Below, piece after piece: positions 6,590 through 19,703 of a stretch of DNA of 40,530 nucleotides. Numbering within the stretch: position 1 is the stretch's first letter; each line of letters opens with the position of its first letter. The stretch covers positions 1-40,530 of IMG/VR virus record IMGVR_UViG_3300044959_000025. The stretch is one strand, 5' to 3'. Below the pieces are notes generated by a model. The model was not told the DNA's origin. It saw only the letters and a list, made by a program, of their open reading frames with translations, and did not search any database. Source of the stretch: a virus. The position numbers and the translations under genes were made by a program.

Positions 6590-7694
6590 GGTGCGGTTGG
6601 CAACGGCTGAAGAGTATGAGCAGGGCAAGCGTGGTGAACTGCGCACGTTTGACTATACCAAGTTGAACGCGCTCACGACTTGTCCAGTGTGGGGGTTGAC
6701 ACGCTACACACACCACAAGACAACCAGCATTGCTTCTGACGATGCACCTGCACCGCTGCGGGCAGGCAAGGTGCTACATGAGTGTTTTGCTGCCATCCGT
6801 CTATGGACGCTTGGCTATGCACAACACGAGTGGGAACTGTATGAGACAGAAGGTGTCAGGCTGTTCGGTGCTGACCGCTTCCAGGCACTCAAGGACGTGG
6901 CACAACAAGGCTTCAAACAGAGTGACCTCAACACTTCACTGCGCAACATCGCAATGGAGTGCCTAGCAACTGCTGACTATGTGGAGGACCCAGATGACAA
7001 ACGACGCACCTATTCTAATCTCGAAGGCAGCCTGCTCTATTACGTTCAACGATGGGACCACACTCGATATCCCGTCTGGGTCCCGAGTGCAGATAGTGCC
7101 AGTGGAACATTGGTGCATGGGCTGCAACGAGGAGGGCGTGTCTCCGGCATTGAGCGCCCATTTGCTCTACACATTAGTTGTGCCGATGGGGGCTTTGCGC
7201 CCTTCCTCTACGTCGGACGCATCGACGGCATCCACTATGACCCACGAACACAACAAGCAATCGTAATGGAGAACAAGTCAGCCACGCGGCTCAACGATGC
7301 ATGGCGCTTGTCATTCCACACGTCACCACAGGTCACTGGTTACACAGTGGCAGGCTCACTGCTGATTGAGCAGCCAGTGCAACGTGCATGCGTTATTGGC
7401 CTTGCACTACCACTGCCACGTGTGTTGTCGGATGGCCTTGCCATTGAGATGGTGGAGCGTCACACTGAGCAGGTGAACTTGTGGATGGATTGGGTGTTGC
7501 ACACAGTCGAATTACACGACAAGTGGCAAGACCAGCCTATGCAGGCACCTAGGCACTACCAGTCGTGCAACCGCTACTTCCGTCCATGTCCACTCGTGTT
7601 CTTGTGTGCATCGCCTGCCGATGAGCGTGAGGCTATGTGGGCCGACATGCGCACTGACGTGTGGAATCCTCTACACGGAGACGATGACGAATGA
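6576..7694 (+). CDS. PD-(D/E)XK exonuclease, Cas4/RecB-like, with Fe-S-type cysteines (372 aa)
   Basis: GRIDGIHYD ... IVMENKS (D...ExK). An N-terminal Cys (TTCPVWG) plus a C-terminal CNRYFRPCPLVFLC cluster typical of Cas4-family nucleases. Confidence 0.75.
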   Translation: MSRVEVRLATAEEYEQGKRGELRTFDYTKLNALTTCPVWGLTRYTHHKTTSIASDDAPAPLRAGKVLHECFAAIRLWTLGYAQHEWELYETEGVRLFGADRFQALKDVAQQGFKQSDLNTSLRNIAMECLATADYVEDPDDKRRTYSNLEGSLLYYVQRWDHTRYPVWVPSADSASGTLVHGLQRGGRVSGIERPFALHISCADGGFAPFLYVGRIDGIHYDPRTQQAIVMENKSATRLNDAWRLSFHTSPQVTGYTVAGSLLIEQPVQRACVIGLALPLPRVLSDGLAIEMVERHTEQVNLWMDWVLHTVELHDKWQDQPMQAPRHYQSCNRYFRPCPLVFLCASPADEREAMWADMRTDVWNPLHGDDDE

Positions 7695-8566
7695 CTATCA
7701 CCATAGGCTCATTCGACGTGCAGCCAGGCACAGTCAAACAACAATTGTTGACAATGTTGTTGTGGGGCAAGCCCGGTTGTGGCAAGACCGTGCTGGCAGG
7801 CACTGCACCAGCAAAGCGGTTGTGGTTGCAGTTTGACCCTGCAGGCACGGCGTCGCTCACTCCTAGTGACGACAACCTGATTGTGGACCTGTCAGGCATT
7901 GACCCTAAGCGGCTTGACACAATCAAGCAGGGCTCAACGTTTGAGGCTGACTTGGTGAAGTTGCTACGCACACGCGATGACATTCAAACTGTCATCGTTG
8001 ACAGCCTTACGTCACTAGGACAGACTGCCTTGACATATGCAATCCTTAGCGGTAAGGCTAACAAGGGTTCATTCAAGGCAACACTTGAGGACCCAGGGCA
8101 GACAGGGTTTGGTGTGCGTCTTGCAATCGTGCAGGACTTCGTGAAGTTGGTGCTGCGTGCATGTGCCGACTACAAGAAGCACTGCATCTTCATCTGCCAT
8201 GAGAAGGATGCACGTGCGGAGACTGTGAACGGTAAGAGCATGGTTGTGGAAATCACCATGAACCTTGGTGGTCAACTCAACAACAACGTTGGGTTGAGCA
8301 TCAGCGAACTGTGGTATGTAGAGGACACAGGCAAGCAGCGCCTGATCTATCTACGCAACCACGGTGTGAAGCGGCCCATGCGCACACGCATGTTCTTGGT
8401 CCCGCCTGACAAGCAGACACTTGTGTGGGAGTATGACCAGACAACCAACACTGGCGACACCATCGCAAAGTGGTATGCTGCATGGCAGGCCAACGGATTC
8501 AACAAGTTGCCGCTCGGCGCGAAGGTCATAGACCGACCCGTCGAGCCTATAGTCACCGAGGGCTAA
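7691..8566 (+). CDS. Sak4-like / AAA_24 RecA-fold ATPase (291 aa)
   Basis: Walker A GKPGCGKT, Walker B VIVDSLT. ATGA coupling to the exonuclease. Typical phage recombination-module position. Confidence 0.7.
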   Translation: MTITIGSFDVQPGTVKQQLLTMLLWGKPGCGKTVLAGTAPAKRLWLQFDPAGTASLTPSDDNLIVDLSGIDPKRLDTIKQGSTFEADLVKLLRTRDDIQTVIVDSLTSLGQTALTYAILSGKANKGSFKATLEDPGQTGFGVRLAIVQDFVKLVLRACADYKKHCIFICHEKDARAETVNGKSMVVEITMNLGGQLNNNVGLSISELWYVEDTGKQRLIYLRNHGVKRPMRTRMFLVPPDKQTLVWEYDQTTNTGDTIAKWYAAWQANGFNKLPLGAKVIDRPVEPIVTEG

Positions 8567-8580
8567 CACTCTCGGCGAAC

Positions 8581-8621
8581 AGTCCACACAACGAGTGACG
8601 GGTTGACGCTATGTGTGGACT
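8581..8621 (+). other. Intergenic hairpin (10-bp stem agtccacaca/tgtgtggact, 21-nt loop)
   Basis: Read directly. The loop contains ttgacgctatgtgtg, which resembles the loop of the 9098-9126 hairpin. Confidence 0.5.
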
Positions 8622-8659
8622 AACACCCGCTCAACCCAACCATAGTGAGGAGTGCAACT

Positions 8660-9079
8660 GTGAGCGAACTTCCTAGCGTGATGGAACTCGATTTTGACCT
8701 CAACGATGCGAAGCCGCCGGTGCCGCTGCCGGAGGGTGAGTATCGTGCAACGGTGCGCGCGATTGAGCGTGCCATCTCCAAGAACAGCGGCAAGGACATG
8801 GCCGTTATTGACTACTTCGTGTCGCCCGACCAGTTTCCGCCGGACTACACGGACGGCAACCCGGATGGTGAGGTGCTGCGCACCTACATCAGCCTGGACA
8901 TGTCGGTGCCGCGCAACCGTTACCGGTGGAAGCAACTGCACCAGATGCATGGGGTGCGTATCATTCCTGGTCGCCTCGACCTGACCGCCTTCATCGGTCG
9001 GGACGTGATCGTGCAGGTCACGCATGAGGACTACCAGGGCGAGATGCGCCCCCGTGTCAACCCGATCCGCGAGGCGTAA
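8660..9079 (+). CDS. DUF669-like protein (SSB-like partner found in Sak4 modules), 139 aa
   Basis: The GTG at 8660 lies 7 nt after GAGGAG (an ATG alternative is at 8681). The LDFDLNDAKPPVPLPEGEY...SKNSGKDM pattern is typical of DUF669. GC-rich codons. Confidence 0.55.
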   Translation: MSELPSVMELDFDLNDAKPPVPLPEGEYRATVRAIERAISKNSGKDMAVIDYFVSPDQFPPDYTDGNPDGEVLRTYISLDMSVPRNRYRWKQLHQMHGVRIIPGRLDLTAFIGRDVIVQVTHEDYQGEMRPRVNPIREA

Positions 9080-9097
9080 AAACCTCTTGCGGAGACT

Positions 9098-9126
9098 GCC
9101 ACGGCACGCTATATGTGTGCCGTGGT
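9098..9126 (+). other. Hairpin (9-10-bp stem ccacggcac/gtgccgtgg), weak terminator or regulatory site
   Basis: 19 nt after the stop at 9079. Only a short T stretch follows. It could overlap a weak promoter (TTGCGG-N17-TATATG, 9088-9116). Confidence 0.45.
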
Positions 9127-9158
9127 TCCTACCACAACAACCCTAGGAGACTGAAAGT

Positions 9159-9419
9159 ATGGCCAAGAACCCTACTGAGAAGCGTTCCGCTACCAAGCGC
9201 ACCACTCCGCCTGAGCGGACGCTCTACATTGTGTTTCAACCGGGGACCAGCCCGGACTTCATCAAGCAGGTGAAGGAGAGCATCCGGACTCTGACTGGCA
9301 ACGGGCGGGTTGTTATCGACGCATTCCGTCAAGGGGACCAGATGCCGGTCCTCCCGCTCACGGTGGACGTGGAGCGTCGCCCGCGCGTTGCTGGCGCGCC
9401 GGAACTCCCGGCTGCTTGA
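9159..9419 (+). CDS. Hypothetical small protein (86 aa), bracketed by hairpins
   Basis: aggaga lies 8 nt upstream. GC-rich. No motif recognised. Confidence 0.7.
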   Translation: MAKNPTEKRSATKRTTPPERTLYIVFQPGTSPDFIKQVKESIRTLTGNGRVVIDAFRQGDQMPVLPLTVDVERRPRVAGAPELPAA

Positions 9420-9483
9420 TGCAGGGTTGTGCTAGTGCCCGTAGGGTGCTCGCAGCGGCCTGAGTAGCGAAGGCAGCACAACA

Positions 9484-9510
9484 GGGCGGCAGGCTGATCA
9501 CCTGCCGCCC
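9484..9510. promoter_or_regulatory. Perfect 10-bp inverted repeat GGGCGGCAGG-N7-CCTGCCGCCC (hairpin or operator)
   Basis: 28 nt upstream of the RHH gene start. No T-run follows, so it is not a classical intrinsic terminator. Confidence 0.55.
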
Positions 9511-9537
9511 AACCTGCTACCACAAGGAGCACACACA

Positions 9538-9774
9538 ATGAGTAACAAACCAACCCGTGTTGAAGTGCGTGTGCCTACTACACCATCACTACGGGGCGTG
9601 GGCATTGAAGCGAAGCGGTATAAGTCCACCATCCGCCTGACGGAGGATGACTACAAGACACTGCTGGCTGCTGCTGAGAAGGCAGGCGTGCCGTTGGCCA
9701 CGTTCATGCGCACAGTGATTACTGATGCTGCTGCACAGTATGTGTCGGAGGATGCGAGCAATGGAGTTGAATGA
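9538..9774 (+). CDS. Ribbon-helix-helix (MobC/CopG-like) DNA-binding protein (78 aa)
   Basis: IRLTEDDYKTLLAAAEKAGVPLATFMRTVI matches the RHH beta-strand/helix/helix pattern. AAGGAG RBS. Confidence 0.7.
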   Translation: MSNKPTRVEVRVPTTPSLRGVGIEAKRYKSTIRLTEDDYKTLLAAAEKAGVPLATFMRTVITDAAAQYVSEDASNGVE

Positions 9775-11083
9775 GCAGCAGCAGCGTGCAGTCAGGCGTT
9801 GCCTTGGGCTGGACCCAAGTCACAAGTGGCGAGTTGTTGCCGTCACTGGTCCAGCAGGCACGGGCAAGACCACCATCATCCGCACAGTGTATGAGCAGTT
9901 GGTGGATGCAGGCTACTCGCCTGTCATCGCAGCACCAACTGGCAAGGCAGCACGTCGTGTGACTGAGGCAACAGGCTGCCCTGCCAAGACTATTCACAAG
10001 TTGTTGGAGTTCCCTCGTCCAAACGAAGTTGACCCCAAGACTGGCAAGTATCTTGACATCACACTACCCAAGCGCAACAAGAACAACCCACTGCAGCACG
10101 ACACGGTTATCGTTGACGAGTATGCAATGGTGAACCGTGAGTTGCATCGTCAGTTGGTAGATGCCATGCCTGCAGGCAGCCGACTGTTGGTGTTTGGTGA
10201 CAACCAGCAACTACCACCAATCGAGCCTAAGCAGACAGGCAAGCCCTCCATCTTCAAGGAGTTGTTGGACAAGTGTGACGGCATTGTGCTCGACACAGTG
10301 ATGCGACAGGACGCTGACAGTGGTGTGCTAGCCAATGCTAGGCGCATCCTGCAGGGTGTTGCACCTGTTGACAACGCTGACTTCAAGCGCATCATCACGG
10401 ACAGGCCCATTGATGCACTGGTAGCAGAAACGCAGCGTCATGACTTCCGCAAACTGCACAACCAAGTCATCGTGCCGGGTAACAATGGGTGGACTGGCAC
10501 AGCCAAGTTGAACATCCTGTTGCAGATGTTGTTGTGGCCAGAACAACGCCCAATGCTGTCGCTGCCTCGCCACCCATGGAGCAGGTATAAGGACTTCGTT
10601 GCAACCATTGGTGATGTGCGCATCCCATTCAAGGCAGGACTGTCCGTTGGCGTTGGTGACAAGGTGATGATGACCAACAACTGGTATGAGTTGGAGTGTG
10701 CTGACGGCTCGTATGGTGTGATGAATGGCGAGGTGGGCATCGTCATTGACATTGACGAAGAACTTGGCGAGGTGGTTGTTGACTTCGACAACCGCGTATG
10801 CCGCATCCCACCGATCGTGCAGACAGTGCATGAAGGTCGCGTGCGGACAGGCTATCCACAGAAGGACTTGGACCTTGCATATGCAGTGACAACGCACAAG
10901 ATGCAAGGCAGTGAATGTGAGCACGTGTGCTATGTGCTCAACAAGTCAGCCATCAGCCTGTGCAATAGGCGTAACTTCTACACTGCCATCACACGGGCAC
11001 GCAAGTCCGTAACACTCATCACTGACACCAAGGCATTGTCTGTGTCTGTGACCCGCAAGGAACCGATGGAGTTTTCACGATGA
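9761..11083 (+). CDS. RecD/Dda-like SF1 DNA helicase (440 aa)
   Basis: Walker A GPAGTGKTT, Walker B VIVDEYAMV, C-terminal TTHKMQGSECEHV motif. GGAGGA lies 8 nt upstream of the ATG at 9761. Confidence 0.85.
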   Translation: MELNEQQQRAVRRCLGLDPSHKWRVVAVTGPAGTGKTTIIRTVYEQLVDAGYSPVIAAPTGKAARRVTEATGCPAKTIHKLLEFPRPNEVDPKTGKYLDITLPKRNKNNPLQHDTVIVDEYAMVNRELHRQLVDAMPAGSRLLVFGDNQQLPPIEPKQTGKPSIFKELLDKCDGIVLDTVMRQDADSGVLANARRILQGVAPVDNADFKRIITDRPIDALVAETQRHDFRKLHNQVIVPGNNGWTGTAKLNILLQMLLWPEQRPMLSLPRHPWSRYKDFVATIGDVRIPFKAGLSVGVGDKVMMTNNWYELECADGSYGVMNGEVGIVIDIDEELGEVVVDFDNRVCRIPPIVQTVHEGRVRTGYPQKDLDLAYAVTTHKMQGSECEHVCYVLNKSAISLCNRRNFYTAITRARKSVTLITDTKALSVSVTRKEPMEFSR

Positions 11084-11652
11084 AGTTCATCTTCCTTAAT
11101 GGTCCACCCCGCAGTGGCAAGGACACTGCTTGCAATGCTATTCTATCCATGCGGCATCCATCAATACGGGTGATGCGACGCATGTCTGAGCCACTCAAGG
11201 CTGGTGTTGCAGGCATCTTCGGCTGGACTGCTGAGCAGCAGCGCCAATTTGAGGAACGCAAGGACTCACTTGAGGTTGCTGACACCAACAAGACGTATCG
11301 TGAGTGGCAGATTGCCCTGTCTGAGGACTTCCTCAAGCCCAAGGCAGGACAAGACATCTTTGGTCGTCTATTCTTGCAATACTGCTTGCAGCATGGCTCA
11401 CCGCATCACGTGTGGGTGTGCCCAGATGCAGGCTTCAAGGCAGAGATCATGCCCATACTGCGTGTGTTCAAGCCACACAACTTGTTCCTCATACACATTG
11501 TGCGCCCAGGCACTGACTTCAGCAATGACAGCCGCAGTTACTTTGAGTTGGAAAACGTAGCCACCATGCAACTGCACAACTTTGGTGAACGCCACGAGTT
11601 GGAAGCAAACGCTGCACGGTTTGCACGTCTTTGGTTGGACTCGTTCGCATGA
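11080..11652 (+). CDS. Deoxynucleoside monophosphate kinase, T4 gp1-like (190 aa)
   Basis: MKFIFLNGPPRSGKDT resembles T4 gp1 MKLIFLSGVKRSGKDT. VCPDAG...IHIVRPG..SNDS resembles IVPDTR...IHVVRPG..SNDT. ATGA-coupled on both sides. Confidence 0.75.
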   Translation: MKFIFLNGPPRSGKDTACNAILSMRHPSIRVMRRMSEPLKAGVAGIFGWTAEQQRQFEERKDSLEVADTNKTYREWQIALSEDFLKPKAGQDIFGRLFLQYCLQHGSPHHVWVCPDAGFKAEIMPILRVFKPHNLFLIHIVRPGTDFSNDSRSYFELENVATMQLHNFGERHELEANAARFARLWLDSFA

Positions 11653-14072
11653 CAGTAGGACACATCAACCGTCAACTAGTTGAGAAGTGCCAGCAACTAG
11701 GGCTAGAGTATGACTGTCTAGCAGATGGCACTAGCGAGGCGGAACTCGCTATCGTAGCCGAGGCACCCGGTGAACGTGAAAGTGAGATGAAGTTGCCGCT
11801 TGTCGGCAAGTCAGGACAGATTGTGTGGCGCACGCTGGACAAAATCGGCATCCGGCGGCATCAGTGCTACATAACTAATGTCGTCAAGCGGCAACTTGTC
11901 TCGCTATCCGGCCCTAAGTCAGGCATCAGCAAGAACGAAGAGCAGCACTGGCATGGCCTTGTGCGTTGGGAGTTGAAGCAACTGCCCAACCTCAAGTATG
12001 TACTGGTGATGGGCAACAAGGCGTTGGAGGCGCTGATTGGTGTCACTGGCATTGATGCTTGGCGAGGTACAGTCAAGTTGGTAGATGGCATCTACTACTG
12101 CATGACCTACAATGCAGCACACGTCATCCACAAGCCGTCACTGGAACGTGTGCTTGCACTCGACGTGGCCAAGTTGGACCTTGTGCGGCAAGGGAAGTGG
12201 CGTGACCATGAGATCACCCCACTCATCAACCCATCACCAAGTGAGGCCATTGCATGGTGTGAGAAGATGATACAGGAAGGCAAGCCTGTTGCCTTCGACA
12301 TTGAGACCATGAGTGGAGAGACTGCATGTGTAGGGTTCGCCAATGATCCACACATAGGCATGTGCATCAACTTCCGCACACGAGACACGCACACATATAG
12401 TGACCGTGATGAGTTGCGTGTGCGTGTGGCTATACAGCGTGTGCTCCGTCACCCTCGTGTGCGCCTCATTGCGCAGAATGGGGCATTCGACTGTGCATGG
12501 TTGTGGTATAAGGACCGCATCAAGGTTGATCCACTATACATGGACACCATGCTGGCACACCACACACTCTATCCTATCTGGCCACACAGTCTAGCGTTCT
12601 TGACTGCACAATACACCACGCACCCTTACTACAAGGACGACAAAGACACATGGCGGGAAGGAGGTGACATCAACCAGTTCTGGGAATACAATGTGCGTGA
12701 CTGCTGCATCACGTTGGCTGCTGCTGAGGCTATGGAGCAGGAGTTGAAGCAGCAGAACCTGTGGGACTTCTTCACTGGTCATGTCATGCGGCTACAGCCA
12801 GTGCTGATCAGCATGACAGTGCTTGGCAATCGCATTGACTTGCAGATGAAGGCTGAACTTGCTGCCAAGTTCGAGGCTGAGGTGGAGCAGTTGCGTTTGC
12901 AGTTTGAGAAGGAAGCAGCCGAGGCAGTAGGGGACCCTGACTACAAGGTCAATCCGTTGTCGTGGCAGCAACTGGGTGACTGGATGTTCCGCAAGTTGCG
13001 GTTGGTAGGACGTTCCACGTCCACTGACGATAGCAACAGGCAATACATCATCAACTCACCACGCACACCAGAGAAGGCTCGTCAGGCACTCATCACACTC
13101 AACCGCTTCAAGGAACAACACAAACTGCTTAGCACATATATCAATGCCAAGGTGGACGAGGACGGCCGGATGCGCAGTGACTACAAGCAGTTTGGTGTAG
13201 TCACCGCACCTGGCAGGCTGTCTAGCAGCAAGACACTGTGGGACAGTGGGATGAACTTGCAGAACCAACCAGAGAGCCTGCGTGGTCAGTTCATCGCAGA
13301 TGAAGGGTGTTGCTTTGTTTACTACGATGGTGCACAAGCAGAAGCACGCATCGTGGCATGGGAAGCACCTATCCCCAAGTGGCAACACCAGTTCGAGATG
13401 GCACGGCTGCATCCAGGCACGTATGATGCACACCGAGCACTTGCAGCAGACATGTGGAACATACCATATGAGCAAGTGCCATCAAAGGACTGGGACCCAG
13501 AGACAGGCAAACACACGCTGCGATACATCGCTAAGCGTTGCCGTCATGGTCTCAACTACCGTATGCAGGCTGCACGACTGGCAGAGGTGACTGGCCTGAC
13601 GTTGGCTGAGGCAACAGAGGCCTACAACGCATATCACGCAGCAACACCAGAGTTGCGTAAGTGGTGGCAGGACGTGATTGACGAAGCACGTAAGAACCGC
13701 ATGGTGTTCAACTGCTATGGTCGTAGGCTTGTGTTCTTGGGCAGCACACTTGACGAGGAGTTGCTCGACGCCCTGATTGCGTTCAAGCCGCAGTCAGGAC
13801 TTGGCGACCACGTGACGCGCACTATGTATCTATGTCATGATGACCCTAAGTGGCCAGCCTATGCAAGGATAGTGTTCAACAACCACGACAGTATCACGGC
13901 CATGTGCCGCATTCAGGACAAGGAGCGTGTTGCGGCTATCATGAAGAAGTATGCTGAAATGCCGCTACTCATCAAGGGACAACAACTCATCATCCCTGCT
14001 GAGGTCAAGGCCAGTGTGCCTGATGAGAAAGGTGTGCATCGTTGGAGCAACCTGAAACCATTGGAGGTGTGA
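11649..14072 (+). CDS. Family A DNA polymerase with 3'-5' exonuclease and an N-terminal UDG-family-4-like domain (807 aa)
   Basis: UDG4-like AEAPGERESEMKLPLVGKSG..L. Exo motifs FDIET, NGAFDC, YNVRDC. Pol motifs YDGAQAEARI (A), RYIAKRCRHGLNY (B), NNHDS (C). Confidence 0.9.
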   Translation: MTVGHINRQLVEKCQQLGLEYDCLADGTSEAELAIVAEAPGERESEMKLPLVGKSGQIVWRTLDKIGIRRHQCYITNVVKRQLVSLSGPKSGISKNEEQHWHGLVRWELKQLPNLKYVLVMGNKALEALIGVTGIDAWRGTVKLVDGIYYCMTYNAAHVIHKPSLERVLALDVAKLDLVRQGKWRDHEITPLINPSPSEAIAWCEKMIQEGKPVAFDIETMSGETACVGFANDPHIGMCINFRTRDTHTYSDRDELRVRVAIQRVLRHPRVRLIAQNGAFDCAWLWYKDRIKVDPLYMDTMLAHHTLYPIWPHSLAFLTAQYTTHPYYKDDKDTWREGGDINQFWEYNVRDCCITLAAAEAMEQELKQQNLWDFFTGHVMRLQPVLISMTVLGNRIDLQMKAELAAKFEAEVEQLRLQFEKEAAEAVGDPDYKVNPLSWQQLGDWMFRKLRLVGRSTSTDDSNRQYIINSPRTPEKARQALITLNRFKEQHKLLSTYINAKVDEDGRMRSDYKQFGVVTAPGRLSSSKTLWDSGMNLQNQPESLRGQFIADEGCCFVYYDGAQAEARIVAWEAPIPKWQHQFEMARLHPGTYDAHRALAADMWNIPYEQVPSKDWDPETGKHTLRYIAKRCRHGLNYRMQAARLAEVTGLTLAEATEAYNAYHAATPELRKWWQDVIDEARKNRMVFNCYGRRLVFLGSTLDEELLDALIAFKPQSGLGDHVTRTMYLCHDDPKWPAYARIVFNNHDSITAMCRIQDKERVAAIMKKYAEMPLLIKGQQLIIPAEVKASVPDEKGVHRWSNLKPLEV

Positions 14073-14074
14073 CT

Positions 14075-14308
14075 ATGGCTGGCACCATCAAACCCCGAAC
14101 AGTGTGGGCTGCTATATATCCAGGACAACGTAGGATTGACCAAGGGCGTCTCTATGATCTCCATGCAGCAGCATGGAACGATTGTGTGAACACGTTTGTG
14201 TGGCGCACTTACCAAGAAACGGGCACCTGGCCACTTAGGACTCGTGCTGCTGCACGTAAGGCAGGATACCGCGTGGCCAGGGTGCGTATGGAGGTTGTGG
14301 AGGATTGA
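14075..14308 (+). CDS. Hypothetical protein (77 aa)
   Basis: GGAGGT lies 6 nt upstream of the ATG at 14075, which starts 3 nt after the polymerase stop. Confidence 0.65.
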   Translation: MAGTIKPRTVWAAIYPGQRRIDQGRLYDLHAAAWNDCVNTFVWRTYQETGTWPLRTRAAARKAGYRVARVRMEVVED

Positions 14309-15547
14309 ATGTTCCGTCCTAAGGAGTCCACCTTCTTGCACCACTACATGCAGTGGTGCAGTGGGCTAGAAACCAACCGCAACTACGACCTGTGGGGAGG
14401 ACTGTGGGTCCTCTCCAACGCAGTCAGCCGTGTAGTGGTGGTTGACCGCCCTAGCATTCCAGTGTTCCTCAACCAATACATCATCTTTGTTGCTGAGAGT
14501 GGCATCACACGCAAGTCAACTGCTGTCAGCAAGGCAGAACAGTTGTTGTCACAGTTCCAGGATCCCTACCGCATTGACATTGCGGGTAGGGTGACTGCTG
14601 CACAGTTGCAGAATGCACTCTCCAAACTGCCTGAGGATGTCCCACACAGTCACATTGCTATCACTGCTAGTGAATTGGTGACTGTGTTGGGCAGGGATGG
14701 CGGCACCTACGGCATACCAGGACTGCTGACTGACTTGTATGACTGTCCAAACCTCCGCACACGCATCATTGGCGATGTGCGACTAGTCATTGAACGTGTG
14801 TATCCTACACTGTTGGGTGCATCCACACCAACATGGCTAGCACAAGCAGTGAACCCTGCCGTCATTGAAGGAGGGTTCACTAGTCGTTGCCTGTTTGTGT
14901 ATGAAGAACGGCCTAAGAAGATGGTACCATGGCCTGATCCCATGCCCAAACTCGAGATGCTTATGCTTGAGCAGTTGTGGGATGCACGCAAGAAGGCAGA
15001 GAAGGTGCAACGCATTCAGTTGAACGAGAAGGCCAAGGCGTTCTTCACATTGTGGTATGTCAATCGGCCAACGCCACCTGCATCTGATGCGTTTGCAATG
15101 TCATTCTTTGCACGTGAGGACCATCACGTCCTACGTGTGGCAGGACTGTTGGCAATCAACGATGGCACGTTTGAGGTGCAAGTGTCACAGATGAAGTCTG
15201 CCGTCGCACTCATAGAGAGTGTGAAGCGTGGTGCGGGTGACTTGTTCTCTATCAGCCTGCATGAGCGTCGCCTGCTAGCCGGTGTGGACCGTCTAATAGC
15301 AGTGCTCATCAAAGCAGGCAGTCATGGGATGACCAAATCTGAACTCGTGTTCAAGTTGCGTGAATACATGAACGTCGCAGAGCGTGACATGCTGCTCGAC
15401 TTGATGCACGAGTTGGATATGGTGCAAAAGTTTGAGTTGCGTGGTGCCCCTGGCAGGCCAACTTACTTGTACCGAGGCACCACGCTACTACTCGACAATG
15501 AAGTGCGTCAGCAGTTCACTGAGAGGGTGAAGGCCTTGCTGGCGTAA
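14309..15547 (+). CDS. Replication-associated P-loop-like protein (412 aa; possibly DUF3987 or primase-helicase-related)
   Basis: Last gene of the replication block. It has a deviant Walker-A-like VAESGITRKST. The function is only guessed. Confidence 0.7.
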   Translation: MFRPKESTFLHHYMQWCSGLETNRNYDLWGGLWVLSNAVSRVVVVDRPSIPVFLNQYIIFVAESGITRKSTAVSKAEQLLSQFQDPYRIDIAGRVTAAQLQNALSKLPEDVPHSHIAITASELVTVLGRDGGTYGIPGLLTDLYDCPNLRTRIIGDVRLVIERVYPTLLGASTPTWLAQAVNPAVIEGGFTSRCLFVYEERPKKMVPWPDPMPKLEMLMLEQLWDARKKAEKVQRIQLNEKAKAFFTLWYVNRPTPPASDAFAMSFFAREDHHVLRVAGLLAINDGTFEVQVSQMKSAVALIESVKRGAGDLFSISLHERRLLAGVDRLIAVLIKAGSHGMTKSELVFKLREYMNVAERDMLLDLMHELDMVQKFELRGAPGRPTYLYRGTTLLLDNEVRQQFTERVKALLA

Positions 15548-18500
15548 ACTGCCTCATACCGCGTGCAGGGTTGAAGTTCTCTATACGGAACTGGATGCCA
15601 AACTCGTCGCTGATGTGCTGCTCCAAGTTCACAATGCTCTCAACTATGCGAACGTTGACATCACGAATGCGGTTGGCTATCCAGTTCTGACCGTAACGCA
15701 GCGCTATCGGATCACGGCGCAGTATAGGATCACTGTTGAGTGCAATCATTGCTGAGTATAGGCTGTTGCGTTCATCACGCAATGGCTGCATGTTGTTGAA
15801 CCCACGTACTACTTGTTGCACAATAGCACGCATTGGTGCCTGATCTTGTGGCGGCAGGCGGTCCAACCAGTCATACTGCGTTTCAACAAACCGTTCACGG
15901 CCACTTCCCAACACGCCAGGACGTGTTACATCACGGCTGCCTTGCTGCAACTCACGCATCTTACGCTCGACGTCTCGCACGTATTCTGACGTGATATCAA
16001 ATGATGGCTGACTGCGTGGACCAGACAGTAGAGGTGCAGCAATAGTTACACGGTCACCAAACCGTTGCCCAATAATGTCACCCAATGCTGACAACGTGGG
16101 CCGTGCATCTTGCTGCAACCTGCGCTGTGCAGCCTCTAGGTCCTCTCGATCCATAAACATCGGCAGCACACGCGCGACAAACTGTCCAACACTGCCCCAA
16201 CTGTTCAACACATTGACAGCCCAGTTGGGCAAAGTGTCAGTGTATGTCTGACCTTCGAAGTATCCTCCTGCACCACGTCGTTCTGTTGGTTGCAGTGATG
16301 GCCGGATGCTGATGAAGTCACGCATGTCATAGCCTGCTGCACCAACTGCACTAGCAATGAGTGGCGGCGGTGCCAACTCACCCATACCACGTTGCAGTGC
16401 TTCCCACATGGTGTAGGTGTGACGCTCCTCAATCAGCCGACGCAGCAACTCACGGTTCTGCCGCATGCCTTCGGAGTAGAACTTTGGGTCATCTGCTCCC
16501 AACGTTGACAGCAGAATGGCCTGTGCAGCAGCAACAAGCGGACCCAGTGGTTGGTCATAAGGCACACGCAGTGCCTGCTCAATAGGCAGTCCAGGCAGGT
16601 AGAATGGCAGTGTGCCTGCTACACGGTGCGGTGCGTTGAACACCAAGTCCTGCACACGTGTAGGCTCTAGGCCGTTTGTAATGTCCTCCTCGTCTTGCAC
16701 CATGGCATTGTAGAGGGCTAGCGTGGTTGGTATGATCACGCTAGTAACCATAGCCATTGTCGTGCGCACTGGGTTCTCACGGAACATCTTGCCGTACTGT
16801 GCCAACCCCTGCTTCATGATGGTAGCATACATGAAGGTAGACTCTATGCCCTGCATGGTACGGTTAGCAGGACGCAGTGCAGGGTCGCCAGTAATACGAC
16901 GCACACGGCTGGTCAGCACACTAAGTGCCTGCTCACGTTCTGGCGAAGCCGTCCTTCGTGTAGTGGTAACACCACGGTCCTCAGGCCGCACGTTGTACAT
17001 GCGCATGTAGTCGTCGCGGTTGAGACGATACACCATAGACTGTGGCGACGACGCTATAATATCGAACGCTTCACGTGCAAGTTGCCACGTCTCCACAACC
17101 TTTGGACCAAGTGGGCTGCGGATTAGTGCATCGCCAACCAACTCACGCAGTTCACGTATGTTAGTGGGGAAGTACCAGTCACGTGGGCGTATTGCCTGAT
17201 ACGAAGGAGACAACGCCGCCACTGATGGAGGCGCACCACCTGTGAAGTCAGCACCAGTGATGGGGTTGTTGCCGATAGCACTCATACGCCGCATCTCGGC
17301 ATAGATGCTATTCTCGTATATGTCATCAAGACGGCGTAGCAGTGCTGCTAGTCGCTCACCACCAACCATCTTACGAACGAGGCTGCGACTAGACAGCAAC
17401 TCACGGCGGGTGATATCAGACAACACCCGCACACTCATTGCTGCAAAGTCTTGCGCCATCGCCCATACGATGCCTGGGTACATTGTAGGATCAAGCATGC
17501 CAAGGGTGAGGCGGTCATTGGTAAAACGGCGCAGCAGACGGTCCAACCTGCCAGTGGCCAGTCGGCTCATTGGTGCTGCAGTCATCAACCACGTGGTGTA
17601 GATGGCTGATATGGGTGCTTGCACGGGACCAGTCAGTGCTGCCAACACACCAGTCGTCAACTCCTGGCCCCACAGACGTGTGGTATTGAGAATGCCTCCT
17701 GTCATAGAGGGTGCACTACGCAGTGCCTGATACACTTCAGGCACATATATCTGCACACTGTACTGCTCACCATTCTCCCACCACCGCATAGTGTTGGCAC
17801 GGTCATCAGGTTCAGGCACCTTGCCACGGTGTATTGGACCGATGATTTGCTTGAGCAGTCGTGGAGCCTTCGTAGGCTCTAGCCTTGCAGCATTCTGAAT
17901 ACGCTCCAAGCCACGGATGACATTACGACGTGCACGGTTTAACTCCGTCTCCGTGATCATACGGATGTCGTAGTCAAGTCGAGCGTCAACATACGATTGT
18001 GGACGATCGGCCAGTCCACCTTCGCGGATGCGTCGCAGTGACATGTAGCCTGTGTGCACATCGTACGGATCGTAGTCAGGCACATAGTGAATGTTCGCAC
18101 GACGCCACTTTTCTGCCATGGCAGGAGTGATGCGTCCCGCCCGCACGAGATACTGTCGCCGACTCTCTGCCCATGCAGCATGTTCGTCAATGTACTCACG
18201 CACCTGCGGCGAACGGCGCATGATTGCTGCTAGTTCTCTCTCAATGTCAGCCAACGACTTGTGCGTCATACCGACACGAGCGGGTTCATTTGGTGCAATA
18301 CGTGATGTAGTGCCAGCCGCTGCGGCACGCTGACGGTTAGACAACTCATCCAACAATGCTTGCACCTGCACAACGTCTGCATGCAGTTCCGGCTGCTCAC
18401 GGATGAGTGTCTCCATGCGGTCCTGCAACTCACGTTGTGAGAACACCCTGCGTTGTGTGCCATCAGGCATACGGACTGTACGCAAGTCATACCCATCAGG

Positions 18501-19703
18501 CGCAATGCCCCGTCGCAGTGCTGCATGAGCACGGGTCTCACGCACGGCCCGTGCTAGCGTTGTTTGCAAGTCAGCATCCAACGATGCACGCTCATCAGGC
18601 GTGATGAACCCAGCCCGTTCAGCCTCACGCACAAATCCACGTGCTGCTGCAGTCTCGTCGATGACCTGCGTAGCCAGTCGCTCACCAATCGTAGGCCGTG
18701 CAATGTCCTCTGGTGGTGGATTGCCGATGGCAACAGTGTCACGACTGCGCAACTCTTCACGTGCTTGACGTGACGCCTGCTGACGACGGAAGCCTGAAAT
18801 GCCTGCACCTATTGCACCTGCTGCAACTAGTGCAGGTATCGCGTTGTCACGCACAATCTGTAGCCACGTGCGGTCATCTTGTTCAGGCTGCGATGGTGCG
18901 GTGCTGTAGAATATCAGCCGACCATCTGTTGTTTCAGCCCAATACCCATCAGGCCCACGCAGTGGGTCCGCCGAAGGCGCCGGCGAGGCATCACTACCAC
19001 CACCACCACCACCACTACCACTCACACCAACACCAGCACCACTTGCTGCTGCCATCGGCGCAGCAGTTGGTGTTTGTGGTGTAGGTGTAGGTGTAGGTGT
19101 AGGGGTTGTTTGTATTGTTGGTTGTGTAGGTGTTGTTTGTGTTGTTGGTGTTGTTGGTTGTGTACTCGCCTGCCCGTGTCCGGGCCGCACCAACTGCAGC
19201 GTGCCATCTGGCAACTCAATCCAGTAGTCATTGTCACCGGGTCGTCCTGCCAATGCATCAAGGCCACTGAATGCCAAGTCAACTGCAGCACCACCTGCAA
19301 TGTTTGCACCAATGCGTCCTGCAGTGAGGGGCACTGTGACAGGTGTAAGTGCTTCTGCAACATTGATTGCAGCACGCACGGGGCGTGGTGCCTGTGCAAT
19401 CGCAGCACCAATCTGTGCAGCACGAGGAATGAGACCAGCGGGCACACCTACTACACTGCCACCAATAATCTGCGCAAGCGCAGCACGCGGGTCCTCCGTC
19501 AACGACACGTCTTGTGTGCCAAGCAGGTTGTTGAAGAAGTCCCCCATGCGCATTGATATGTCAGCAGCACGTTCGTTGCCGAACATGCCTGCAATAGCAA
19601 ATGGTGCCTGTGGGACCTGCGTCACACCTCGCAGCATGTTGCGGAAGTCCCGCCAGTCCAACCCAGGCAGCATGCCTGCGCCAATGCGCACGTTGTCACT
19701 CAT
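15516..19703 (-). CDS. Large internal virion / DNA-ejection protein, T7 gp16-like by size and position (1395 aa)
   Basis: Last and largest gene of the late operon, after the nozzle and three mid-size proteins, as in T7 gp13-16. It contains a TP/TQ-rich and poly-Gly linker. Confidence 0.6.
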   Translation of the reverse strand: MSDNVRIGAGMLPGLDWRDFRNMLRGVTQVPQAPFAIAGMFGNERAADISMRMGDFFNNLLGTQDVSLTEDPRAALAQIIGGSVVGVPAGLIPRAAQIGAAIAQAPRPVRAAINVAEALTPVTVPLTAGRIGANIAGGAAVDLAFSGLDALAGRPGDNDYWIELPDGTLQLVRPGHGQASTQPTTPTTQTTPTQPTIQTTPTPTPTPTPQTPTAAPMAAASGAGVGVSGSGGGGGGSDASPAPSADPLRGPDGYWAETTDGRLIFYSTAPSQPEQDDRTWLQIVRDNAIPALVAAGAIGAGISGFRRQQASRQAREELRSRDTVAIGNPPPEDIARPTIGERLATQVIDETAAARGFVREAERAGFITPDERASLDADLQTTLARAVRETRAHAALRRGIAPDGYDLRTVRMPDGTQRRVFSQRELQDRMETLIREQPELHADVVQVQALLDELSNRQRAAAAGTTSRIAPNEPARVGMTHKSLADIERELAAIMRRSPQVREYIDEHAAWAESRRQYLVRAGRITPAMAEKWRRANIHYVPDYDPYDVHTGYMSLRRIREGGLADRPQSYVDARLDYDIRMITETELNRARRNVIRGLERIQNAARLEPTKAPRLLKQIIGPIHRGKVPEPDDRANTMRWWENGEQYSVQIYVPEVYQALRSAPSMTGGILNTTRLWGQELTTGVLAALTGPVQAPISAIYTTWLMTAAPMSRLATGRLDRLLRRFTNDRLTLGMLDPTMYPGIVWAMAQDFAAMSVRVLSDITRRELLSSRSLVRKMVGGERLAALLRRLDDIYENSIYAEMRRMSAIGNNPITGADFTGGAPPSVAALSPSYQAIRPRDWYFPTNIRELRELVGDALIRSPLGPKVVETWQLAREAFDIIASSPQSMVYRLNRDDYMRMYNVRPEDRGVTTTRRTASPEREQALSVLTSRVRRITGDPALRPANRTMQGIESTFMYATIMKQGLAQYGKMFRENPVRTTMAMVTSVIIPTTLALYNAMVQDEEDITNGLEPTRVQDLVFNAPHRVAGTLPFYLPGLPIEQALRVPYDQPLGPLVAAAQAILLSTLGADDPKFYSEGMRQNRELLRRLIEERHTYTMWEALQRGMGELAPPPLIASAVGAAGYDMRDFISIRPSLQPTERRGAGGYFEGQTYTDTLPNWAVNVLNSWGSVGQFVARVLPMFMDREDLEAAQRRLQQDARPTLSALGDIIGQRFGDRVTIAAPLLSGPRSQPSFDITSEYVRDVERKMRELQQGSRDVTRPGVLGSGRERFVETQYDWLDRLPPQDQAPMRAIVQQVVRGFNNMQPLRDERNSLYSAMIALNSDPILRRDPIALRYGQNWIANRIRDVNVRIVESIVNLEQHISDEFGIQFRIENFNPARGMRQFTPARPSPSQ
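18996..19013 (-). repeat. (ACC)6 on the plus strand, encoding Gly6 in the 1395-aa protein
   Basis: Counted directly. It corresponds to SGSGGGGGGS. Confidence 0.9.
19078..19101 (-). repeat. (GGTGTA)4 hexanucleotide repeat, encoding (TP)4 in the 1395-aa protein
   Basis: Counted directly. It corresponds to TPTPTPTP within a Thr/Pro/Gln-rich linker. Confidence 0.9.

What the first reader, a model, noticed from the sequence alone, without database searches (positions are those of the whole stretch)
11080..14072. T4 gp1-like dNMP kinase translationally coupled to a PolA carrying a degenerate UDG-family-4-like N-terminal domain
The helicase, kinase and polymerase genes are chained by ATGA overlaps. 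The kinase matches T4 gp1 at the P-loop and at the IH(I/V)VRPG...SND(S/T) block; T4 needs gp1 to handle hmdCMP. The first roughly 190 residues of the polymerase resemble family-4 uracil-DNA glycosylase, the domain also found at the N-terminus of SPO1-type phage polymerases (SPO1 DNA contains hmU). Here the motifs deviate: AEAPG replaces GE(A/G)PG, and VVKRQ replaces the Cys-containing KCRPP Fe-S ligand region. That suggests a non-catalytic or re-purposed base-recognition domain. Together these features hint at unusual nucleotide metabolism or a modified base. However, I found no thymidylate-synthase-like, dCTPase or transferase genes to complete such a pathway.
Basis: partly seen in the sequence, partly recalled or inferred. 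Interest (0 to 1): 0.6.

Follow-up and report, generated by a model that had tools for sequence, protein, structure and literature searches.

The report
Phage polymerase with altered UDG domain
An uncultured 40.5-kb phage from a sample labelled hot spring or microbial mat chains a helicase, a T4-type nucleotide kinase and a DNA polymerase whose front end is a well-conserved uracil-glycosylase fold lacking its iron-sulfur ligands and a key catalytic histidine; this is a new variant of a known fusion, not a sign of modified DNA.

Summary
ATGA overlaps join helicase to kinase (11080) and kinase to polymerase (11649). The kinase is T4 gp1-like by PHROG, sequence and fold. Polymerase residues 1-200 are a true family-4 UDG fold (Pfam E 2.4e-14; AlphaFold pLDDT 96; best fold matches TM0511, Tth UDG and UdgX).

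The motif deviations are real, and there are more of them. There is no set of four Cys ligands for the iron-sulfur cluster. Phe becomes Leu51. The motif-B catalytic His becomes Asn155.

The domain is not decaying. About 60 metagenomic relatives share the same signature (E38, N77, N-P-A), and the domain is as conserved as the exonuclease and polymerase domains.

UDG-PolA fusions are already known: N4-like (inactive), and SPO1-like and SP15-like (active, thymine-modified genomes). This clade is monophyletic and lies outside both the N4 polymerase and the one SPO1-like polymerase sampled. It also carries His at polymerase position 762, which the papers I read do not list.

The modified-base idea is not supported. 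The complete genome has no ThyA, ThyX or dUTPase, and no recognisable transferase. The kinase is missing from some sister phages, and elsewhere sits beside ordinary dNTP-supply genes.

Most likely the domain guides the template strand or senses uracil with little or no excision. This is a new variant of a known kind, of moderate interest.

The parts
9725..11083 (+). SF1B RecD2/Dda-like DNA helicase (452 aa from the first ATG; the true start may be a few codons downstream)
   Evidence: Pfam AAA_19 and AAA_30 at E about 1e-32, plus UvrD_C_2. PHROG exonuclease V / Dda-like helicase. NCBIfam RecD2 at E 8e-78. 29% identical to N4 gp37.
11080..11083 (+). ATGA overlap: kinase start codon and helicase stop codon
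   Evidence: Sequence read directly.
11080..11652 (+). T4 gp1-type dNMP kinase, 190 aa. P-loop GPPRSGKDT at residues 8-16; IHIVRPGTDFSNDS at 138-151.
   Evidence: phrog_139 at E 3.7e-31. PDB 1dek at E 9.5e-4. AlphaFold pLDDT 97.2 with 1dek as best fold match. Invariant G13, K14, D15, R74, D116, E122, D150 and R152 in 60 homologues.
11649..11652 (+). ATGA overlap: polymerase start codon and kinase stop codon
   Evidence: Sequence read directly. An in-frame TTG at 11631 is an alternative start.
11649..14072 (+). Three-domain family A DNA polymerase (UDG-like, 3'-5' exonuclease, polymerase), 807 aa
   Evidence: Pfam. phrog_17 at E 4.9e-86. 66 matches, all but two near full length, with the same architecture.
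11727..12239 (+). Family-4 UDG-fold domain (residues 27-197). Signature residues are A37-E38-A39-P40-G41, E44, L51, T76-N77, K80-R81-Q82 and N155-A156-A157. No four-Cys set for an iron-sulfur cluster.
   Evidence: Pfam UDG at E 2.4e-14. 1ui0 at E 1.5e-11. AlphaFold pLDDT 96.2. Foldseek to TM0511, Tth UDG and UdgX at E about 1e-12, TM about 0.7. Residue positions; clade conservation.
12255..12746 (+). 3'-5' proofreading exonuclease domain (residues 203-366), with an intact Exo I motif (D217-I-E219)
   Evidence: Pfam DNA_pol_A_exo1 at E 1.3e-11. The FDIET motif is conserved in the clade.
12861..14015 (+). Polymerase domain (residues 405-789). Motif A is YYDGAQAEAR. Motif B is RYIAKRCRHGLNY, with His633 at the position of E. 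coli F762. Motif C is NHDS.
   Evidence: Pfam DNA_pol_A at E 1.4e-31. Alignment to Taq puts H633 opposite F667. Motif alignment.

Best explanation
This is the core replication operon of a complete 40.5-kb uncultured tailed phage. It encodes a RecD2/Dda-type helicase, a T4 gp1-type dNMP kinase and a single-chain replicase built as UDG-like domain, proofreading exonuclease and family A polymerase.

Kinase (inferred from family). It most likely raises the dNDP and dNTP supply from dNMPs. It is an accessory gene, not a partner of the UDG domain.

UDG-like domain, shown. It is a genuine family-4 fold. It has lost the iron-sulfur ligands, the stacking Phe and the motif-B catalytic His (now Asn155). 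It keeps Glu38, Asn77 and the motif-B loop under strong purifying selection.

UDG-like domain, inferred. By analogy with the cryo-EM structures of phiLo and YerA41 polymerases, it contacts the single-stranded template ahead of the polymerase site and can take a flipped base into its pocket. Without the His, it probably cleaves poorly or not at all. It would then act as a template-guiding or uracil-sensing module rather than an efficient glycosylase.

Genome DNA (inferred from the absence of pathway genes). It is most likely made of canonical bases.
For: Identity of the three genes.

UDG fold.

Motif states: by the alignment, E38 = Tth E41, L51 = F54, N77 = N80, R81 = the Cys of KCRPP, and N155 = H155. 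In phiLo polymerase the catalytic residues are E53 and H178 (PMC13697223).

Clade signature: among the 66 matches, E38 is kept in 64, N77 in 66, N155 in 62 and L51 in 60. No four conserved Cys exist.

Selection: mean pairwise identity is 0.51 for the UDG domain, 0.54 for the exonuclease and 0.53 for the polymerase. Columns at least 90% conserved make up 28%, 26% and 25%.

Loss of His loosens the pocket over deeper divergence. Among the 150 best 50%-identity representatives:
- the His type (n=91) keeps E38 in 97%, an aromatic at position 51 in 98% and N77 in 100%;
- the Asn type (n=43) keeps them in 72%, 47% and 84%.

The Asn clade has one origin (SH-aLRT 100). It lies inside a supergroup with the Mel-JY34, MW202489 and Desulfofustis phages; of these, Mel-JY34 and MW202489 keep GE.PG, PF and HP., while the Desulfofustis motifs were not resolved.

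Canonical DNA: no ThyA, ThyX, dUTPase or ATP-dependent ligase in six frames, and no modification enzyme in the ORF scans.

Kinase is accessory: it is absent between helicase and polymerase in L004 and L005 and present at 36% identity in L003. The same family sits in a 49-kb contig whose PolA gives no Pfam UDG hit, and beside ThyX, MazG and RNR in a 74-kb contig.
Against: No biochemistry exists for this clade.

Asn at the motif-B position occurs in active MUG-type glycosylases (my own knowledge, not tested here), so a slow or re-targeted glycosylase is not excluded. The near-invariance of E38 and N77 inside the immediate clade fits catalysis as well as binding.

The position of the UDG domain relative to the template path is therefore taken from published relatives, not shown for this protein.

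About half of the phage's ORFs have no family match, so an unknown modification enzyme cannot be ruled out.
Confidence: 0.55

Rival explanations
1. The Asn-type UDG domain is still an active glycosylase. It would remove uracil, or another base, from the template during replication, as in SP15-like polymerases. Asn155 would play the role that Asn plays in MUG-type enzymes.
For: E38, E44, N77, P156 (Ala in the window itself) and R161 (His in the window) are strongly conserved in the immediate clade. The domain is as constrained as the catalytic domains. The probable source is labelled hot springs / microbial mat, where cytosine deamination should be frequent (source label only).
Against: The motif-B His is named as catalytic in phiLo polymerase. 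It is kept in 91 of the 150 best representatives, together with a strictly kept E, F and N. Lineages with Asn show drift at E38, position 51 and N77. The stacking Phe is replaced by Leu. No DNA ligase is found in the genome, and the ORF scans found no match to a PolX or AP endonuclease family. The published active systems carry PolX and ligase (PMC13697223).
Confidence: 0.25
2. The domain is only a structural or processivity module with no base recognition, as proposed for N4-like polymerases.
For: The iron-sulfur ligands, the Phe and the His are lost. Czernecki et al. suggest such a role for inactive UDG domains (PMC10201439).
Against: The N4 domain cannot be aligned to UDG motifs at all. Here the pocket residues E38 and N77 and the motif-B loop are nearly invariant over about 40-50% sequence divergence. 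A pure scaffold would not need that.
Confidence: 0.12
3. One reading: the kinase and the altered UDG domain mark a modified-base (hmU/hmC-type or hypermodified) or uracil-containing genome.
For: SPO1-, SP-15- and YerA41-type phages combine a UDG-PolA with thymine-modified DNA. T4 gp1 phosphorylates hmdCMP (my own knowledge).
Against: Six-frame searches of the complete genome find no ThyA-like hydroxymethylase, ThyX or dUTPase, and the ORF family scans find no dCTP deaminase, MazG-type enzyme, transferase or methylase. The kinase is dispensable in sister phages and is linked to ordinary dTMP and dNTP genes elsewhere. In those modified-genome phages the UDG is catalytically intact, unlike here. 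The genome assembled to a complete DTR-bounded contig from routine metagenomes, whereas hypermodified genomes resisted standard sequencing (PMC13697223).
Confidence: 0.06

Closest known systems
N4-like UDG-PolA (cluster #17 of Czernecki et al. 2023, PMC10201439)
   Same: An N-terminal family-4-UDG-derived domain is fused to exonuclease and PolA. The length is 800-900 aa. A catalytic UDG residue is lost. Motif C reads HD(S/A). The replication module has similar gene content: SF1 helicase, DUF3987-type primase, Sak4-like ATPase and SSB.
   Different: The N4 UDG region cannot be aligned to the UDG motifs, whereas this one scores Pfam UDG at E 2.4e-14. N4 has Phe at position B3; this clade has His. 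N4 falls outside the 99%-supported supergroup that holds the window. The genome is 40 kb, with no ORF of virion-RNA-polymerase size (longest 1395 aa), against 70 kb for N4.
SPO1-like and SP15-like UDG-PolAs (SPO1, SP-10, Bacillus phage JL; YerA41, phiLo; PMC13697223)
   Same: The same three-domain architecture. The UDG model also matches the UDG domain of phiLo polymerase 9qhs (Foldseek E 6e-8). The motif-A Glu is kept; the uracil-contacting Asn is kept here but is Ala in the one SPO1-like polymerase sampled (JL).
   Different: Those enzymes keep the motif-B His, and the SP15-like ones are shown to excise dU. JL also keeps the Cys ligands. SP15-like enzymes have three large insertions and exceed 1100 aa. 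Their phages carry thymine-modification or BER genes. JL lies outside the window's supergroup.
UDG-PolAs of Microcystis phage Mel-JY34, Manatee Spring phage MW202489 and Desulfofustis phage LS06-2018-MD01
   Same: These are the nearest sequenced phages (22-28% identity over the whole polymerase). They share the genome size (40-44 kb) and the synteny polymerase, DUF3987 primase, giant virion protein. They also have His at B3 and lack the KCRPP Cys.
   Different: Mel-JY34 and MW202489 keep GE.PG, PF and HP. in the UDG domain, that is, the canonical catalytic set. Neither carries a kinase gene next to its polymerase, and both carry a DNA methylase in the same module.
Free-standing family-4 UDG (Thermus UDG 1ui0, Thermotoga TM0511) and UdgX
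   Same: The same fold (TM about 0.7). The motif-A Glu, the Asn of the TN motif and the motif-B loop are kept.
   Different: No iron-sulfur Cys ligands, His155 replaced by Asn and Phe replaced by Leu. There is no UdgX-type His in the loop at 86-96. The curated NCBIfam cut-offs are not reached: TIGR00758 scores 60.6 against 125.3, and the UdgX model 54.4 against 190.
T4 gp1 dNMP kinase (PDB 1dek) / phrog_139
   Same: The P-loop, the IH.VRPG..SND block and the fold.
   Different: It is 50 residues shorter and only about 20% identical. Pfam DNMK scores 15 bits, below its cut-off of 27.1. Substrate range is unknown.

Membership tests
UDG superfamily (Pfam PF03167), family-4 fold | Sequence match above the curated cut-off, and an alpha/beta UDG fold | tested here: met
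   54.0 bits against a cut-off of 24.3. AlphaFold pLDDT 96.2. The top 36 listed Foldseek matches are family-4 UDGs or UdgX.
Family-4 UDG proper (NCBIfam TIGR00758 / NF040953) | Score above the curated family cut-off | tested here: not met
   TIGR00758 scores 60.6 bits against 125.3. NF040953 scores 51.6 against 250.
Family-4 UDG proper | Four Cys ligands of the 4Fe-4S cluster, including the Cys of KCRPP | tested here: not met
   The window has R81 where Thermus UDG has that Cys. The domain's Cys residues at 14, 23, 73 and 151 are not conserved as a set.
Family-4 UDG proper | Catalytic and uracil-pocket residues: motif-A Glu, stacking Phe, Asn of TN, motif-B His | tested here: not met
   The Glu (E38) and the Asn (N77) are present. 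The Phe is Leu51 and the His is Asn155. The same states hold in about 60 relatives.
UdgX (covalent uracil-DNA binding protein) | A His in the KRRIH loop that forms the covalent link, and the family cut-off | tested here: not met
   The aligned loop reads GPKSGIS with no His. Clade position 94 is S, G or N. TIGR03914 scores 54.4 bits against 189.95.
N4-like PolA (cluster #17) | Clusters with the N4 polymerase; Phe at B3; UDG domain with a deletion and lost catalytic residues | tested here: not met
   Only 23% identity to N4 gp39, over the exonuclease and polymerase parts alone. B3 is His. N4 lies outside the 99%-supported supergroup.
SPO1-like / SP15-like UDG-PolA | Conserved UDG catalytic residues (Glu and His). 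[quoted passage not shown] | tested here: not met
   The His is replaced by Asn155. The length is 807 aa with no large insertions. The SPO1-like polymerase of phage JL lies outside the supergroup.
Family A DNA polymerase with proofreading | Exo I DxE; pol motif A Asp and steric-gate Glu; motif B R..K...x.G..Y; motif C HD | tested here: met
   The motifs FDIET, YYDGAQAEAR, RYIAKRCRHGLNY and NHDS are present. Pfam matches both domains.
DpoZ (aminoadenine-incorporating PolA) | NCBIfam NF038380 above its cut-off | tested here: not met
   35.1 bits against 500. The ORF family scans gave no PurZ-type (adenylosuccinate synthetase) match.
T4 gp1-type dNMP kinase (phrog_139 / Pfam PF21448) | P-loop, the conserved IH.VRPG..SND block, and the gp1 fold | tested here: met
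   phrog_139 at E 3.7e-31. Both blocks align to 1dek. The best fold match is 1dek. Pfam PF21448 alone is below its cut-off (15 against 27.1).
T4 gp1-type dNMP kinase | Substrate range (hmdCMP, dGMP and dTMP in T4) | not testable with these tools
   Needs an enzyme assay.
Thymidine or cytosine hypermodification pathway | A ThyA-like dUMP or dCMP hydroxymethylase, a dUTPase or dCTP deaminase, and a DNA kinase or transferases | tested here: not met
   No PF00303, PF02511 or PF00692 match in six frames of the complete genome. No such family appears in the ORF scans.

The most novel reading that the evidence does not exclude
The Asn-type UDG domain is a non-excising 'read-ahead' base sensor built into a family A replicase. 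It would flip template bases into a retained Glu38/Asn77 pocket, detect uracil or another unusual pyrimidine ahead of the fork, and alter polymerase behaviour without making an abasic site. This would be a bacteriophage counterpart of the uracil-sensing pocket of archaeal family B polymerases. It would be fixed in a large, undescribed lineage of uncultured phages whose polymerases also carry His at position 762.
Probability: 0.3. Interest if true: 0.65.

Novelty: new variant of a known kind. Interest (0 to 1): 0.42.

Why it matters
UDG-polymerase fusions have so far been described in two states. One is catalytically intact, in phages with thymine-modified DNA, where excision is coupled to replication. 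The other is decayed, as in N4.

This clade shows a third state. The pocket is strongly conserved, but the iron-sulfur cluster and the catalytic His are gone. That gives a natural series for asking what the domain does once it stops cutting: template guidance, uracil sensing or processivity.

It also shows that a UDG-PolA, even next to a gp1-type kinase, is not a reliable marker of base modification.

The supergroup is large: 473 representatives at 50% identity reach E <= 1e-30. It carries His at the ddNTP-discriminating position 762, which surveys of viral PolA diversity score only as Phe, Tyr or Leu.

Tried and rejected
- N4 gp38, the small gene between the N4 helicase and polymerase, is not a kinase homologue.
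- ATP-dependent ligase as a marker of active BER: the window has none, but the His-type phages Mel-JY34 and MW202489 also have none. Only the Desulfofustis phage has one, and MW202455 is annotated with one next to its polymerase. It does not separate the two UDG types, so I do not use it to tell them apart.
- Metagenome contigs L003 and L004 could not be searched whole.
- Pfam, PHROGs and NCBIfam gave nothing for most early and structural ORFs.
- No tRNA genes were found.
- Earlier notes of this scan on the same genome concern other loci and did not bear on this finding.
- No RNA holder is listed among the public runs.
- Papers: no paper in the searched library mentions Mel-JY34, and 'UDG-PolA' appears only in Czernecki et al..
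- I could not read model coordinates, so pocket geometry was not measured.

Full report
**Setting.** The window is a complete virus record of 40,530 bp with direct terminal repeats. Public runs that hold the whole stretch are labelled hot springs or microbial mat metagenome and are probably its source. It has no close sequenced relative. The best phage matches to the polymerase are 22-28% identical: a Manatee Spring phage (MW202489), Microcystis phage Mel-JY34 and a Desulfofustis phage.

**The observation.** The helicase (9725-11083), the kinase (11080-11652) and the polymerase (11649-14072) lie head to tail on the + strand. Both junctions read ATGA. This is real but ordinary: 9 of 36 same-strand junctions in this genome are (A/G)TGA overlaps.

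**The kinase.**
- It matches phrog_139, deoxynucleoside monophosphate kinase, at E 3.7e-31.
- It matches T4 gp1 (1dek) at E 9.5e-4.
- A model built on 60 homologues has pLDDT 97.2, and 1dek is its best fold match (E 1.6e-9, TM 0.72).
- Pfam's DNMK model alone stays below its cut-off.

**The polymerase.** Pfam gives three domains: UDG at 27-197 (E 2.4e-14, above cut-off), 3'-5' exonuclease at 203-366 and DNA_pol_A at 405-789. Residues 1-204 match Thermus family-4 UDG 1ui0 (E 1.5e-11), UdgX and Thermotoga TM0511 by sequence. A model of residues 1-205 built on 63 sequences has pLDDT 96.2. Its best Foldseek matches are TM0511, Thermus UDG, UdgX and Sulfolobus UDG (E about 1e-12, TM about 0.7). It also matches the UDG domain of the phiLo family A polymerase 9qhs.

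**The motifs.** The residue equivalences come from the alignment to 1ui0.

| Window residue | Thermus UDG equivalent |
|---|---|
| A37-E38-A39-P40-G41 | G-E41-G-P-G |
| L51 | stacking Phe54 |
| T76-N77 | T-N80 |
| K80-R81-Q82 | K-C-R (iron-sulfur ligand) |
| N155-A-A | H155-P-A of motif B |

The domain's four Cys residues (14, 23, 73, 151) are not conserved as a set in relatives. The loop at 86-96 aligns with the KRRIH loop of UdgX but has no His. NCBIfam's curated family-4 and UdgX models match below their cut-offs. The two more telling ones are Phe to Leu and His to Asn.

**Not decay.** A search with residues 1-200 found 66 proteins, all but two near full length, with the UDG-exo-pol architecture. 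Many sit on contigs of 42-48 kb. In them, E38 is present in 64 of 66 and N77 in 66 of 66. Asn at 155 is present in 62 of 66, P156 in 63 and L51 in 60. K80 and E44 are invariant. Mean pairwise identity is 0.51 in the UDG domain, 0.54 in the exonuclease and 0.53 in the polymerase. The share of columns conserved at 90% or more is 28%, 26% and 25%. The domain is under the same constraint as the two catalytic domains.

**Wider family.**
- A profile of the domain, searched against 1.84 billion representatives, gave 473 proteins at E <= 1e-30. Most of the best 150 are about 800 aa.
- 91 of those 150 keep the motif-B His. With it they keep E38 (97%), an aromatic at 51 (98%) and N77 (100%).
- 43 have Asn. 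They keep these residues less often (72%, 47%, 84%).
- Only 8 of the 150 have the KC Cys, so the iron-sulfur cluster was lost in nearly the whole supergroup, including forms that look catalytically intact.
- This pattern fits a loss or change of uracil excision after the His was replaced. Within the window's own clade, the pocket remains constrained.

**Phylogeny.** I built a maximum-likelihood tree of 32 whole polymerases (quick search, LG+G4, T7 as outgroup). The Asn clade is one branch (SH-aLRT 100). It sits inside a 99%-supported supergroup with the Mel-JY34, MW202489 and Desulfofustis phages, a PolA without a UDG hit (L010), and P0065 and P0066. N4, the SPO1-like polymerase of Bacillus phage JL, MW202455 and P0064 fall outside. 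The UDG columns were included, and several outgroup branches are long. I therefore rely only on the two starred branches.

**What is known.**
- Czernecki et al. 2023 (PMC10201439) defined N4-like PolAs (cluster #17) as UDG fusions. A deletion and mutations inactivate the glycosylase in them. They noted other, unclassified UDG-PolAs that keep all catalytic residues.
- Missoury et al. 2026 (PMC13697223) showed that the SP15-like polymerases of YerA41 and phiLo excise dU from the template ahead of the fork. The catalytic residues are E53 and H178. These enzymes belong to phages with thymine-hypermodified DNA, which also encode PolX and a ligase.
- The window's enzyme fits neither group. N4 gp39 aligns only over the exonuclease and polymerase parts (23% identity), and its N-terminus shares no UDG motif.
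- Phage JL keeps the Cys ligands and the His. The sister phages Mel-JY34 and MW202489 keep GE.PG, PF and HP..

**Modified bases.**
- Six-frame searches of the complete genome find no thymidylate-synthase-like protein, ThyX, dUTPase or ATP-dependent ligase, and the positive controls responded.
- Pfam, PHROGs and NCBIfam scans of all ORFs of about 88 aa or more found only replication, lysis and packaging functions: Sak4-like ATPase, SSB-like protein, helicase, DUF3987 primase, amidase, portal and terminase.
- The polymerase is not a DpoZ (35 bits against a cut-off of 500).
- The kinase is present at the same place in one sister contig (36% identity). It is absent between helicase and polymerase in two others.
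- The same kinase family occurs in a 49-kb contig whose PolA gives no Pfam UDG hit, and in a 74-kb contig between ThyX and MazG and close to RNR genes. That is an ordinary dNTP-supply neighbourhood.
- I conclude that nothing here points to non-canonical DNA. Many ORFs remain unassigned, so this is an absence of evidence within the reach of the profile libraries.

**Mechanism.**
- Shown: the identity and integrity of the helicase, kinase, exonuclease and polymerase motifs; the UDG fold; the residue states; and their conservation.
- Inferred: the UDG domain contacts the single-stranded template ahead of the active site, as in the published structures of relatives. It retains a base-accepting pocket (E38, N77, L51). 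Without the motif-B His it excises poorly or not at all. It therefore serves as a template guide or uracil sensor.
- Rivals: a slow or re-targeted glycosylase is the main one. A purely structural role and a modified-base link are less likely.

**Verdict.** This is a new variant of a known kind (UDG-PolA), of moderate interest.

Noticed in passing
window 13545-13547 (polymerase residue H633): Motif B position B3, the equivalent of E. coli Pol I F762 and Taq F667, is His. His is found in 62 of 63 near-full-length matches, in Mel-JY34, MW202489 and the Desulfofustis phage, and in 84 of about 100 full-length representatives of the supergroup. The two PolA surveys I read describe only Phe, Tyr and Leu at this ddNTP-discriminating position (PMC6302109, PMC10201439).
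   Followed up: partly
window 7691-15547, compared with L002 (phage N4 gp37-gp45): The replication module has the same gene content as N4: SF1 helicase, UDG-PolA, primase (DUF3987-type in the window), Sak4-like ATPase and SSB-like protein. This is despite very low sequence identity, a 40-kb genome and no ORF of virion-RNA-polymerase size (longest 1395 aa). It suggests a deep common origin of the module.
   Followed up: partly
representatives (for example P0130, P0147, P0155, P0156, P0259): Eleven of the best 150 UDG-domain relatives are 1047-1449 aa long, well above the usual 800 aa or so. They may carry inteins, insertions or extra fused domains. One (P0140) has the UDG domain starting at residue 246.
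   Followed up: no
window 15516-19703 (- strand): A 1395-aa protein with no family match lies tail-to-tail (convergent) with the primase gene. A giant ORF of 1270-1890 aa at the same place is conserved in L003, L004, Mel-JY34 and the Desulfofustis phage. It is probably an internal virion or ejection protein.
   Followed up: no
L006 6586-7881 and L007 7286-8677: The His-type sister phages Mel-JY34 and MW202489 carry a DNA methyltransferase of about 430-460 aa a short way upstream of the polymerase gene. In the window the genes just upstream of the polymerase are the helicase and the kinase, and no methylase was detected anywhere in its genome.
   Followed up: no
window 11080-14072: Public runs holding the whole stretch are labelled hot springs and microbial mat metagenome and are probably the source sample. 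Several other mat runs hold 31-37% of the sampled words, which suggests related variants.
   Followed up: no
window 14042-14308: A possible 88-aa ORF lies between the polymerase and the primase, and its start overlaps the end of the polymerase gene. The sister contig L003 has a 132-aa weak HNH ORF at this place, and L004 has none. The slot is variable.
   Followed up: no
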